A stretch of DNA of 64,000 nucleotides from Escherichia coli (GTDB taxonomy: Bacteria > Pseudomonadota > Gammaproteobacteria > Enterobacterales > Enterobacteriaceae), in NCBI RefSeq assembly GCF_017348835.2, contig NZ_CP071375.1; one strand, written 5' to 3'. Below, one piece after another: positions 53,501 through 56,500 of this stretch. Position numbers: made by a program. Each line of letters starts with the position of its first letter. Within the stretch, counting starts at the first letter, position 1.

Positions 53501-56500
53501 TTCATAACGGGCAATCTCACTGAAACTCATGCCCTGCATCAGAATCTTAAGCACGCTTAACTCCCGTGCAGTCAGGAGCCAGAAATCACTCATATCGCCG
53601 GGTAAAGGACGTAGTAACCAGCGGATAATTTGATTCTGATAACGACTCGCTTTCAGCAAGGTGCCGATATGTGGGAAGCCGTTATACAGACTTGAAGCAG
53701 GAGCATTATCGAACCAGTCGGAGTCACCGGTCAGGCAGACCTGCCATTGCCCGGCATCACTCCGCAAGCGGACAAGACAAGCCAGAAGAACTAACTCCCC
53801 CGAAGGAAGCGAAGGGATATCAGCCAACAGGTAGCCACAGGAGGTCTTTAAAACGAATTCAACCTCTGTAGTGACGTTGCTGTACACCCGCACGATATAC
53901 CTGTCCGCTGGGATGAGAGACTCCAGTGCCAGCCTGGTGAACTGACAGGCACTGATAATAACCAGAGGCTTCTTCATTCAGACTCGTCCACGCCATTGCT
54001 ACGAAACCTGACATTTTGATTCAAAATGTCAGGTTTGGTTTAATTGCCTGAATATTTAATTTTCTTGGAATATAAATCTAATTTGTTTGATTTTTATTGT
54101 TTTTAATTTTGTGTTATTTAACAATATGAGTGAAAGTTAATCACTGGTATGACCTTTGTGTTTAATCATTTCAAATCATGGGGTTATTTTACTTTAGCGA
54201 GAAATATCAACATGTTATGTGTTTTATTTAATTGAATGGGCTGTTTTTTATGGAAGAATTGAGGAAAACGTAGGAATCTGACATTTTGAATCAGAAGGTA
54301 CTGTTTTAACGAGGCTTTTTTTTCCACACCCCTTTAAATCGAGCAGCATTACTGGCTGTGTCTGACAGTATGCTGGATATTTCGATGACCCAGATAATCC
54401 TGAAGTAGTCGGGTATCGACACCATTGTCAGCCAGAGCAAAACCACAGGCATGACGTAACATATGAGGATGTGCTTTTACAGCTAATCCTGCACGTTTTC
54501 CAGCTTCACGAATGATAGAAAAAAATGTTGTCTGCTGATAGGGCGGCGTTTCCGGGAGAGAAAAAGCCAGTCTCCTTCAACTCCGTTTTCAATTAACTTC
54601 CTCTGTTTAAGCCACAACTTGATCAAATTATATTCATCAGGAAGAAGAGGATGTGTTGTCGAGAAACCATTTTTAATACGCCGAATATTAAGTTGTTTTC
54701 CTGATGCATCAATATCGGATAAACGTAAATCAAGAAGTTCACTGGCCCTAAAACCGTGAATGAAAGCCATCATAATTAGACAGCGATTTCTTTCAGGAAA
54801 GGACATGCTCTGGGCTGCATCCATCAGCCTGTAGACTTCATCCTGTGTGAGATATTTTCTCGTCATACGCCACCGTGTACAGTTGTAAAAAAGAGAGGCA
54901 CACCCAGATAAGTATGCCTGCTATCAGAACGTTATCGATGTAATCTCATTATCTCATTATCTCATTAATAAGATTTTTTGAATAGTAGTTCTACGCAATA
55001 GACTAAATATGAACTATTTATTGTGCAGCTTTTCTACAAGCCATTTTTAATGCGTGTTTTTATCTACAGCGATGTGGAAAAAATAAATATAAAAGCTATG
55101 AATTACAGGGCGTGGGGGATGTGTGTTACGTCTAATCTTTTAGTGATGTTTAGTAGTTTTGAGATATTTGACGTTATTTCTTATGAGGTTGTTTTTATTA
55201 TTTATCTTATTGATTTTATATGCATTTTGTCGTTCCATGAAGTTGGAGTGTAGAAAATAAAAATTTAATATTATTCCCGTTAACTTACAATAACACATTG
55301 TTGTAAGATATTTTTTAGTTGTAAGTAAATCATTATTGATGGGTTCTGCTAATAAATTAAAGATGTTCTCTTAAATAGTTTTTTGCTTTTTGTAAATATC
55401 AATTTGTTTATTTTTGATTCATTTGCTGGAGAGTATTTCAACAATTTTTATTTTTCGCATAAACTTATTAACAACTTTTTATTATCAATTGGAAATCAAT
55501 GTAAACTAAAATGTTAGCGAAGCGATAACCTTGTGCTAAAAAATATTTAAGCATGATGATTAATTAAAGAAGAGTAAAAATAAATCACTGCTAATAAATT
55601 ATACGAATCGTGTTTAAAGCTCCACGTTGTTTTGGTCTGACTTATTTTTGTCCTCGTTTCAAGAACCCTTTTCGTATATGCTAACCGTGAGCGGGAGTGA
55701 ACAAGTCACCATAGCCAGGAACACTAGCGGCGTAATTCTTAAGCTGAGTGGCATTTCACCTGCGGTTTATCAGTGCATTCATAGCACCTTCATCAGCCAG
55801 ATTGAACGAGTCCGCTTAGAATTTTCTGGCGAGGTTGTCACTATGAAGCATGAGAGTTACCCCTATGTTTTATATAACGATTCTGTCCCCATACCTGGAA
55901 CGGTAACTCTCAATCTGATCGGTTCTTGAGTCAGTTCAAATCACGACTCATTTTTTTCGCTCTCACCGGCATCCCATTCGCCACAAAATATCCCGCCGTG
56001 CTCCTCGGCAACGCTTCCTGTCCACGAATCATGTCCGCTATTTTCTCGCCAATCATAATTGTCGTGGCGTTCAAATTCCCGGTGATAATCTGCGGCATAA
56101 TTGACGCATCCACCACGCGCAGGCCTTCCAGCCCATGCACGCGGCCTTCGCCGTCAACCACGGACATCTCGTCGTAGCCCATTTTGCAGGTACCGCACGG
56201 ATGGAAGGCGGTTTCGGCGTGATTACGCACGAACTCATCGAGCTGCTCATCCGTCTGGCATTCGACACCGGGGCTGATTTCGCGGCCACGATACTGATCC
56301 AGCGCGGGTTGATGCATGATCTCGCGGGTGATGCGAATTGCGTCGCGGAACTCCTGCCAGTCCTGCTCGTGCGACATGTAGTTAAACAGAATCGCCGGAT
56401 GCTGGTACGGGGCGCGGGATTTAATCCGCACATGCCCACGGCTTGGCGAGCGCATCGATCCGACGTGGCACTGGAAGCCGTGCTCTTTCACTGCATTCGA

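What the first reader, a model, noticed from the sequence alone, without database searches (positions are those of the whole stretch)
54870..55930. AT-rich islet with an orphan ORF between the recombinase gene and betA
About 750 bp of strongly AT-rich sequence with only short ORFs is followed by a 100-aa ORF (55627..55929) ending two bases from the betA stop. Composition differs sharply from the flanking bet genes, suggesting horizontally acquired DNA, probably silenced by nucleoid proteins, and marking the islet boundary.
Basis: partly seen in the sequence, partly recalled or inferred. Interest (0 to 1): 0.3.

Follow-up and report, generated by a model that had tools for sequence, protein, structure and literature searches.

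The report
Upstream region of dead fimX recombinase
The AT-rich stretch is the non-coding upstream region of the fimX/ipbA recombinase gene (a pseudogene in this strain) at the edge of the already described PAI-X islet of E. coli, and the 100-codon reading frame is most likely an accident that spans the islet border, so the finding is ordinary.

Summary
Window 54870-55626 has 28% GC against 48.9% for the window, and a 100-codon TTG frame runs 55627-55929, ending beside the betA stop.

The window is identical to E. coli PE164 over the 13.8 kb compared. The stretch is the betA-side end of the known PAI-X islet (hyxB-hyxA-hyxR-hyxS-ipbA/fimX), inserted into the 212-bp ykgH-betA spacer. The islet spans 51714-55841 here and occurs in 1894 of 5426 complete E. 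coli genomes.

The border (55841/55842) lies inside the ORF. The ORF has no relatives outside this locus, no Pfam domain and no Shine-Dalgarno motif. Its length varies (57-150 aa), and its dN/dS matches the off-frames. Its ATG sits at a 96-bp deletion junction.

Published Cappable-seq data for O157:H7 EDL933 place two transcription starts, each seen in all eight conditions. One is at window 54941 (-), 75 nt upstream of ipbA, behind an extended -10 and ahead of a conserved terminator-like hairpin. The other is at 55689 (+), 11 nt inside the ORF. No start maps in the AT-rich core.

ipbA is frameshifted here, so the region is largely vestigial. H-NS silencing was not tested. Interest is low.

The parts
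51714..55841 (.). PAI-X islet as present in this strain (truncated hyxB, frameshifted hyxA, hyxR, hyxS switch, ipbA pseudogene, AT-rich upstream region). It is inserted in the ykgH-betA spacer.
   Evidence: blastn of the empty site (L002) against the window gives junctions at 51713 and 55842. Annotations come from the identical record and from an intact islet.
54306..54866 (-). ipbA (fimX/hbiF) tyrosine recombinase pseudogene. It has a T8-to-T7 frameshift shared with O55:H7, plus a further 2-nt deletion near the 3' end.
   Evidence: Alignment with the intact CD306 gene and the O55:H7 gene. PGAP marks it 'frameshifted'.
54867..54941 (-). 75-nt ipbA leader, from the transcription start mapped in EDL933 to the ATG.
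   Evidence: TSS 372239(-) is present in all 8 conditions (PMC10469882 Table S4). It maps to window 54941.
54886..54919 (-). Terminator-like hairpin (10-bp stem, 4-nt loop, 54896-54919) followed by CUCUUUUUU. It lies inside the leader, about 20 nt before the ATG.
   Evidence: Terminator scan and folds. It is conserved in 5 diverged alleles with one U.G to C-G change. An analogous hairpin with a different stem sequence precedes an 81%-identical recombinase gene elsewhere in E. coli.
54948..54956 (-). Extended -10 promoter element TGaGATAAT of ipbA, 6 nt upstream of the mapped start.
   Evidence: Sequence upstream of TSS 372239 in EDL933, identical in the window.
54944..54967 (.). Octamer TCTCATTA x3. 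Four of the five other alleles counted have x2, and E371 has one perfect copy after a substitution. The repeat overlaps the -10 element.
   Evidence: Alignments and repeat count.
54942..55688 (.). AT-rich core (27% GC). No start site on either strand in EDL933, no promoter-like consensus match, only short non-conserved ORFs. The centre (about 55170-55370) evolves fast.
   Evidence: 0 promoter-like sites against 4.9 +/- 2.3 in shuffles. (56-74% identity against 92-95% for the proximal 230 bp).
55119..55253 (+). 44-aa 'hypothetical protein' called by PGAP, judged spurious.
   Evidence: It is annotated in PE164, Sakai and EDL933. It is broken by stops or frameshifts in the B2 and E371 alleles. 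No start site lies upstream of it.
55627..55929 (+). The 100-codon ORF (TTG start; an 83-aa version starts at ATG 55678). It is judged an accidental frame across a decayed remnant plus core DNA.
55677..55689 (+). -10 element TATGCT and an outward-facing transcription start at 55689. The start lies 11 nt inside the 83-aa ORF, and the promoter spans the 96-bp deletion junction (55678/55679).
   Evidence: TSS 372981(+) is present in all 8 conditions and classed 'd_gTSS'. Mapping is and the deletion junction.
55842..55930 (.). Core DNA downstream of betA, shared with islet-free strains. It contains an 11-bp perfect inverted repeat (55851-55861 / 55902-55912).

Best explanation
The segment is the non-coding, betA-proximal end of the known PAI-X (fimX-hyxRAB) genomic islet. 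It has three parts.

1. 54867-54956 holds the ipbA/fimX promoter (extended -10) and a 75-nt leader. The leader carries a stable hairpin followed by a U-tract. I infer that this acts as a leader terminator that keeps recombinase expression low, and that also stops read-through coming from betA.

2. 54942-55688 is about 750 bp of 27%-GC spacer. It has no start sites and no promoter-like consensus matches, and its centre evolves fast. It is probably coated by H-NS-type proteins and functions, if at all, as a silencer or insulator between the bet operon and ipbA. This is inferred, not shown.

3. 55689-55841 is a GC-normal decayed remnant at the islet edge. An outward-facing promoter there makes a + strand transcript that converges on betA.

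The 100-aa ORF is a chance frame running from the remnant into core DNA, not a gene. Because ipbA carries two frameshifts in this strain, the regulatory function is vestigial here.
For: Identity and limits:
- The window is identical to PE164 over the 13.8 kb compared.
- Annotated neighbours are hyxR, hyxA and ipbA.
- The empty-site comparison fixes the islet at 51714-55841.
- The islet is present in 1894 of 5426 genomes.
- The literature describes fimX, hyxS, hyxR and PAI-X (PMC6083910, PMC8777976, PMC7545054).

Promoter and leader:
- EDL933 Cappable-seq TSS 372239(-), seen in all 8 conditions, maps to window 54941 behind TGaGATAAT.
- The hairpin plus U-tract was found by the scan and by folding.
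- The proximal 230 bp is 92-95% identical across alleles whose ipbA synonymous divergence reaches 0.19.
- A hairpin in the same position, with a different sequence, precedes an 81%-identical recombinase gene.

Core:
- No start site lies between 372240 and 372980.
- There are 0 promoter-like sites against 4.9 +/- 2.3 expected.
- The PGAP 44-aa ORF is not conserved.

ORF:
- No Pfam family matched.
- All 42 homologs are unnamed or named E. coli hypotheticals, 57-150 aa long.
- dN/dS is 0.40-0.93 in frame against 0.35-0.84 off frame.
- The frame is closed upstream in the E371 allele, leaving 57 aa.
- The mapped start lies 11 nt inside the ORF.
- The earlier EDL933 annotation of this ORF is absent from current RefSeq.
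- No Sakai RIBOseq small ORF is listed in this interval.
Against: - Transcript data come from EDL933, not from this strain. Its sequence at the ipbA promoter is identical, but it differs at -30 of the + strand promoter and has 2 rather than 3 octamer copies.
- No 3'-end data show that the hairpin terminates transcription, and its U-tract is interrupted (CUCUUUUUU).
- The leader hairpin has only one single-sided substitution among alleles and no true compensatory change.
- The Salmonella ortholog STM0716 has no such hairpin next to its start.
- Given the dataset's density, about 2.7 start sites would be expected in 741 bp, so finding none is only weak evidence of silence.
- A consensus H-NS motif is not enriched in the window.
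- dN/dS of 0.40-0.48 against the B2 alleles does not exclude weak constraint on the ORF.
Confidence: 0.8

Rival explanations
1. The 100-aa (or 83-aa) ORF encodes a real lineage-restricted small protein carried at the islet edge.
For: - The frame is open in most alleles, giving 75-100 aa (translations).
- It was once annotated as a hypothetical protein in EDL933, at 372970-373221.
- Many gene callers predict it, giving 42 clusters.
- dN/dS is 0.40-0.48 against the B2 alleles.
- A start site seen in all eight conditions lies nearby on the same strand.
Against: - The mapped start (55689) is downstream of both candidate start codons.
- No Shine-Dalgarno motif precedes TTG 55627 or ATG 55678.
- The ATG sits at a 96-bp deletion junction, and the frame is closed upstream in the 86 genomes with the long allele.
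- The C-terminus lies in core DNA and changes with indels.
- The off-frames give the same dN/dS range.
- There is no Pfam domain and no relative outside this locus.
- It is dropped from current RefSeq annotation.
- No RIBOseq small ORF is listed there in Sakai.
Confidence: 0.05
2. The functional unit is RNA. One candidate is a short leader RNA (54941 to about 54886, - strand) ended by the hairpin. The other is a ~150-270 nt + strand RNA from 55689 that converges on, or is antisense to, the betA 3' end. Either could act as a regulator of ipbA or of the bet operon.
For: - Both start sites are seen in all 8 conditions in EDL933.
- The hairpin plus U-tract resembles an sRNA 3' end or Hfq site.
- The leader is conserved.
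Against: - There is no Rfam match.
- The + strand RNA folds no better than shuffles, z = -0.76.
- No hybrids from this interval appear in the Sakai RNase E-CLASH tables searched.
- The + strand promoter spans a lineage-specific deletion junction.
- No 3'-end data exist.
Confidence: 0.12
3. The AT-rich region hides a further Fim-type invertible switch acted on by the adjacent recombinase.
For: - Recombinase genes of this family sit next to their switches.
- Weak inverted repeats exist, for example 55370-55386 / 55535-55551.
- A hyxS-like half-site motif, TCTGAC, occurs at about 55636.
Against: - 1888 of 1895 records align to 54867-55841 in one collinear piece.
- The inverted repeats are of the quality expected in AT-rich DNA.
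- Whole-genome inversion screens with over-expressed FimX found only fimS, hyxS and ipuS (10.1101/494401).
- The known switch hyxS lies on the other side of ipbA, at 54004-54306.
Confidence: 0.02

Closest known systems
PAI-X / fimX (ipbA, hbiF)-hyxS-hyxRAB islet of extraintestinal pathogenic E. coli (UTI89, CFT073, ST131); also present in O157:H7
   Same: Same locus (between ykgH and betA), same genes and same hyxS inverted repeats. The finding region is 86-97% identical to the region upstream of ipbA in about 1890 genomes.
   Different: This copy is degraded. ipbA and hyxA are frameshifted, hyxB is truncated, and ykgH is split by an IS3-family element. None of the papers I could read describes the ipbA upstream region itself.
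nanC-fimB intergenic region of E. coli K-12 (long AT-rich regulatory region upstream of the paralogous recombinase gene fimB; from my own knowledge)
   Same: An unusually long AT-rich non-coding stretch upstream of a Fim-family recombinase gene.
   Different: There is no detectable sequence similarity. The query finds a median of one place per genome even in distant blastn mode. NanR, NagC and IHF sites were not looked for. Only the proximal ~230 bp is conserved here.
H-NS-silenced AT-rich horizontally acquired DNA (e.g. Singh et al. 2014, PMC3923964)
   Same: 27% GC inside a 49% GC context, accessory distribution, and no mapped start sites in the core.
   Different: H-NS occupancy was not tested. 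The flanking promoters are active in all eight conditions in EDL933. The core is depleted of, rather than rich in, promoter-like consensus matches.
Salmonella T1-antigen phase switch with recombinase STM0716 (PMC11294581)
   Same: The recombinase is 72% identical to FimX, and the module layout (recombinase, switch, regulators) is similar. Its upstream spacer is AT-rich, 30-44% GC.
   Different: The upstream spacer is only ~510 bp, is not alignable, and has no hairpin plus U-tract next to the start codon.
Leader (5'-UTR) intrinsic terminators / attenuators
   Same: A stem-loop plus U-tract lies between a mapped transcription start and the start codon.
   Different: No alternative antiterminator structure, leader peptide or ligand-binding fold was identified. 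Termination has not been shown.

Membership tests
PAI-X (fimX-hyxRAB) islet | Inserted between ykgH and betA, and absent from K-12-like strains | tested here: met
   Empty site against occupied site gives junctions at 51713/51714 and 55841/55842. 1894 of 5426 genomes carry it.
PAI-X (fimX-hyxRAB) islet | Gene content ipbA/fimX, hyxR, hyxA, hyxB | tested here: met
   RefSeq annotation of the identical record and of an intact copy. Here ipbA and hyxA are pseudogenes and hyxB is truncated.
PAI-X (fimX-hyxRAB) islet | hyxS invertible element with ~16-bp inverted repeats between fimX and hyxR | tested here: met
   Inverted repeats at 54004-54035 / 54275-54306 with 239 nt between them. The description is in PMC6083910.
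Protein-coding gene (the 100-aa ORF) | Purifying selection in the reading frame | tested here: inconclusive
   dN/dS is 0.40-0.93 in frame against 0.35-0.84 in the two off-frames. The counts are small.
Protein-coding gene (the 100-aa ORF) | Conserved start, stop and length across alleles | tested here: not met
   Lengths are 100, 75 and 57 aa in the alleles compared and 57-150 aa among database calls. The stop moves with an indel in core DNA.
Protein-coding gene (the 100-aa ORF) | Homologs or domains beyond the locus | tested here: not met
   No Pfam hit at E <= 10. All 42 hits are E. coli orthologous frames. No plasmid or phage DNA match.
Protein-coding gene (the 100-aa ORF) | A transcript that includes the start codon and a ribosome-binding site | tested here: not met
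   The only + strand start mapped in EDL933 is at window 55689, downstream of TTG 55627 and ATG 55678. No Shine-Dalgarno motif is present.
H-NS-silenced xenogeneic DNA | AT-rich relative to the host, and horizontally acquired | tested here: met
H-NS-silenced xenogeneic DNA | H-NS occupancy and de-repression in an hns mutant | not testable with these tools
   No ChIP or hns-mutant data for this locus were found. The consensus-motif count is uninformative, 79 against 74 expected.
Leader intrinsic terminator / attenuator | G+C-rich stem-loop followed directly by a U-tract, located between the transcription start and the start codon | tested here: met
   Hairpin at 54919-54896 followed by CTCTTTTTT. 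Start at 54941 and ATG at 54866.
Leader intrinsic terminator / attenuator | Measured termination, and regulated read-through | not testable with these tools
   No 3'-end data are available. Conservation in 5 alleles and an analogous hairpin at a paralogous locus are only suggestive.
Fim-type invertible promoter switch (within 54870-55930) | Short inverted repeats flanking a 250-350 bp segment found in both orientations | tested here: not met
   1888 of 1895 records are collinear. Only weak AT-rich inverted repeats are present. No new FimX-dependent inversions were found in UTI89 or CFT073 (10.1101/494401).

The most novel reading that the evidence does not exclude
fimX/ipbA-type recombinase genes are expressed from a promoter active in all tested conditions, whose 75-nt leader contains an intrinsic terminator. 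Recombinase dose, and hence fimS/hyxS switching frequency, would then be set by leader termination or read-through. The same hairpin would also shield the gene from betA read-through. A hairpin in the same position but with a different sequence upstream of an 81%-identical recombinase gene at a second E. coli locus suggests the arrangement is selected.
Probability: 0.3. Interest if true: 0.35.

Novelty: already known. Interest (0 to 1): 0.15.

Why it matters
Mostly it does not. The region belongs to a described islet, and the ORF should not be carried forward as a gene. Two small practical points follow.

- Annotation pipelines call two spurious frames here: a 44-aa frame that current PGAP still annotates, and an 83-100-aa frame that earlier RefSeq annotation and other gene callers predicted.
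- The upstream region of fimX had not been dissected in any paper I could read. Combining a public start-site map with allele comparison locates its promoter and a conserved leader hairpin. This gives people who study type 1 pilus and hyxR phase variation a concrete element to mutate.

Tried and rejected
- **Ultra-conserved block at 55460-55650.** Rejected. Its 96-99% identity equals the islet-wide baseline between the same lineages (hyxA, hyxR and ipbA are 96-100%). The unusual feature is the divergent centre.
- **Rfam scan of 53800-56100 at E <= 10.** Only chance-level hits.
- **H-NS consensus TCGATAAATT.** 79 matches against 74 expected in the window, with no clustering.
- **Known EHEC sRNA Esr41.** It lies in OI-43, not here. 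OI-9 is a different island.
- **Genome-contig scans.** A DNA pattern from the distal block gave 0 hits. The IpbA protein gave one locus, Escherichia sp. MOD1-EC7003.
- **Plasmid and phage collections searched with the GC-normal remnant.** No real hits.
- **Literature search for ECs0355/ECs0356.** Nothing found.
- **Sakai RIBOseq small-ORF tables and RNase E-CLASH tables.** Nothing in the interval.
- **Primary PAI-X papers.** Bateman 2013 and Bateman & Seed 2012 are not held.
- **Target-site duplication at the islet ends.** None seen.
- **Second invertible element.** Rejected.
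Full report
**Observation.** The composition profile shows GC falling to 0.23-0.31 between about 54900 and 55650, against 0.55-0.62 in betA to the right. GC computed exactly is 0.280 for 54870-55626 and 0.272 for 54942-55688. The 64-kb window averages 0.489, and only 5 of 2530 sliding 757-bp windows are as low. ORFs inside the stretch are at most 76 aa. A 100-aa TTG-initiated ORF occupies 55627-55929, one base from the betA stop triplet at 55931. The description is accurate.

**What the locus is.** A megablast of 54300-56100 against 5426 complete E. coli genomes gave a 100% match to strain PE164 (pig, Nanjing). The window is identical to that record over the 13.8 kb compared. 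RefSeq annotation there, and in a strain with an intact copy (CD306), gives this order: ykgG, ykgH, hyxB, hyxA, hyxR, ipbA ('also known as HbiF and FimX'), about 1 kb with no conserved gene, then betA-betB-betI-betT.
- In islet-free strains ykgH lies 212 bp from betA.
- Blasting that empty site against the window places the insertion between ...ACTGGAT and ATGAAGCATGAG.... The islet is therefore 51714-55841 here (4128 bp) and 5990 bp in CD306. No flanking direct repeat was seen.
- The ~975 bp between ipbA and the border is found in 1894 of 5426 genomes.

This is the islet the literature calls PAI-X. FimX inverts the fimS switch and the adjacent hyxS switch that controls hyxR (PMC6083910, PMC8777976, PMC7545054). 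The hyxS inverted repeats are at 54004-54035 and 54275-54306, on the other side of ipbA from the finding.

**State of the islet in this strain.** ipbA has lost one T from a T8 run, a change shared with O55:H7, and also carries a private 2-nt deletion. hyxA is frameshifted and hyxB is truncated. ykgH is split by an IS3-family element. Whatever the upstream region does for ipbA, the gene it serves is dead here.

**The 100-aa ORF.** The islet-core border lies inside it. The last ~29 codons are DNA shared with K-12-like strains, including an 11-bp inverted repeat downstream of betA. Several tests argue against a gene:
- It matches no Pfam family at E <= 10.
- A search of 5.8 billion proteins returned 42 clusters, every named one an E. 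coli hypothetical protein. None has a domain, and lengths range from 57 to 150 aa.
- Across alleles the frame gives 100 aa (this lineage), 75 aa (B2 lineage, after a 1-nt indel in the core part) and 57 aa (E371 type).
- The E371-type allele is present in 86 genomes. It has 96 extra bases flanked by imperfect 9-bp direct repeats, TG(A/C)TAACCG. The ATG at 55678 of the shorter alleles sits exactly at that deletion junction.
- Nei-Gojobori dN/dS over the gap-free islet part is 0.40-0.93 in the ORF frame and 0.35-0.84 in the two other frames, so there is no frame-specific constraint.
- Neither start codon has a Shine-Dalgarno motif.
- The remnant has no DNA relatives in the plasmid or phage collections.

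**Transcription evidence from the literature.** A Cappable-seq study of O157:H7 EDL933 covered eight conditions in triplicate (PMC10469882). Its Table S4 lists every start site. I fetched the EDL933 sequence and aligned it to the window.
- TSS 372239(-) is present in all eight conditions and classed 'orphan'. It maps to window 54941, 75 nt upstream of the ipbA ATG. It is preceded by ttaaTGaGATAATgagatt|A, a textbook extended -10.
- TSS 372981(+) is also present in all eight conditions. It maps to 55689, behind TATGCT, 11 nt downstream of the ATG of a then-annotated 83-aa 'hypothetical protein' (372970-373221).
- Weaker - strand starts map to 55774, 55805 and 55807.
- No start is listed on either strand between 54942 and 55688. 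Given the dataset's density (19,975 sites in 5.5 Mb) about 2.7 would be expected, so this is only mild evidence of silence.
- A consensus promoter scan of the same 747 bp finds 0 sites against 4.9 +/- 2.3 in shuffles.
- Sakai RIBOseq small-ORF tables and RNase E-CLASH tables have no entry in the interval.

**The ipbA leader.** The terminator scan flagged a hairpin on the ipbA strand at 54919-54896 (AGGCATACTT-ATCT-GGGTGTGCCT) followed by CTCTTTTTT. It ends about 20 nt before the ATG. With the mapped start at 54941, it lies inside the 5' UTR.
- It is conserved in five diverged alleles, including Escherichia sp. MOD1-EC7003, with one U.G to C-G substitution and no disruptive change.
- The proximal 230 bp upstream of ipbA is 92-95% identical among alleles whose ipbA synonymous divergence is 0.06-0.19. 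The region from -231 to -580 is only 56-74% identical. Constraint is therefore confined to the promoter and leader part.
- A recombinase 81% identical to IpbA heads a similar module in other E. coli, next to acetolactate decarboxylase and synthase genes: recombinase, ~290-bp spacer, two small proteins, then an autotransporter. It is preceded at the same position by a 12-bp-stem hairpin plus T-run with an unrelated stem sequence.
- The Salmonella ortholog STM0716 (72% identity) lacks such a hairpin next to its start.

I infer, without 3'-end data, that the hairpin attenuates transcription from the ipbA promoter. This fits the low recombinase levels needed for rare switching, and it would also block read-through from betA.

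**The AT-rich core.** A first impression of an 'ultra-conserved' distal block was wrong. Identity between this lineage and B2 strains is 96-100% throughout hyxA, hyxR and ipbA, so 96-99% at 55470-55670 is simply baseline. The centre (55100-55380) drops to 69-83% with many indels. The 44-aa ORF that PGAP calls at 55119-55253 lies there and is broken in the B2 and E371 alleles. The core contains no Rfam family. It shows no orientation polymorphism, since 1888 of 1895 records are collinear. A published genome-wide screen found no FimX-dependent inversion other than fimS, hyxS and ipuS (10.1101/494401). H-NS binding is plausible from composition and general knowledge (PMC3923964), but I found no data for this locus. 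A consensus-motif count is uninformative.

**Verdict.** However, the stretch is the upstream, non-coding end of a known islet rather than an islet in itself. The border lies inside the ORF, the ORF is most likely not a gene, and silencing remains untested. Novelty: already known. The only mildly new points are the location of the fimX promoter and its conserved leader hairpin, and an outward promoter at a deletion junction, active in all eight conditions.

Noticed in passing
window 54004-54306: This is the hyxS invertible switch (inverted repeats 54004-54035 / 54275-54306). EDL933 start sites 371561(+) and 371580(+) map to window 54265 and 54284, inside the switch. They point away from hyxR and into the 3' end of ipbA. 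The switch therefore appears to be in the hyxR-OFF orientation, and with ipbA dead it is presumably locked. 1780 of 1891 genomes share this orientation in their assemblies.
   Followed up: partly
L005 1878-1937 (strain E371); also H99 (strain E166): Some strains have only ~58 bp between hyxR and ipbA. The ~270-bp hyxS element is missing although ipbA is intact.
   Followed up: no
window 49400-51713: ykgH is split by an IS3-family element (about 49765-51074). hyxB is reduced to a short 'adhesin' remnant and hyxA is frameshifted, so the whole islet is decaying in this strain.
   Followed up: partly
L014 / L015 (E. coli assemblies GCA_050854415.1, GCA_028909615.1), 2700-6567: A second PAI-X-like module lies at a different chromosomal site, next to LysR-family regulator, acetolactate decarboxylase and acetolactate synthase genes. 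It consists of a recombinase 81% identical to IpbA, a ~290-bp spacer (candidate switch), two ~245-aa proteins and a 900-aa autotransporter. Its recombinase gene is preceded by its own hairpin plus T-run.
   Followed up: partly
window 54944-54967: The octamer TCTCATTA occurs 3 times here. Four of the five other alleles counted have 2 copies, and E371 has one perfect copy after a substitution. The repeat contains the ipbA extended -10 (on the other strand), so this strain has two tandem TGAGATAAT motifs.
   Followed up: partly
window 55678/55679; L005 3316-3411: A 96-bp indel is flanked by imperfect 9-bp direct repeats, TG(A/C)TAACCG. The long form occurs in 86 genomes. In the short form, the deletion junction coincides with both the ORF's ATG and the -10 of the + strand start site.
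   Followed up: yes
window 55100-55380: The centre of the ipbA upstream region differs by 17-40% between allele classes whose flanking genes differ by 1-4%. That is more than synonymous divergence in ipbA. It points either to old alleles kept apart by recombination in the flanks or to locally raised mutation and indel rates.
   Followed up: partly
window 26701-27350, 30251-30700, 61901-62450 and others: Other stretches below 33% GC exist in the window. One, at about 26.5-27.3 kb, is as AT-rich as the finding. None was examined.
   Followed up: no
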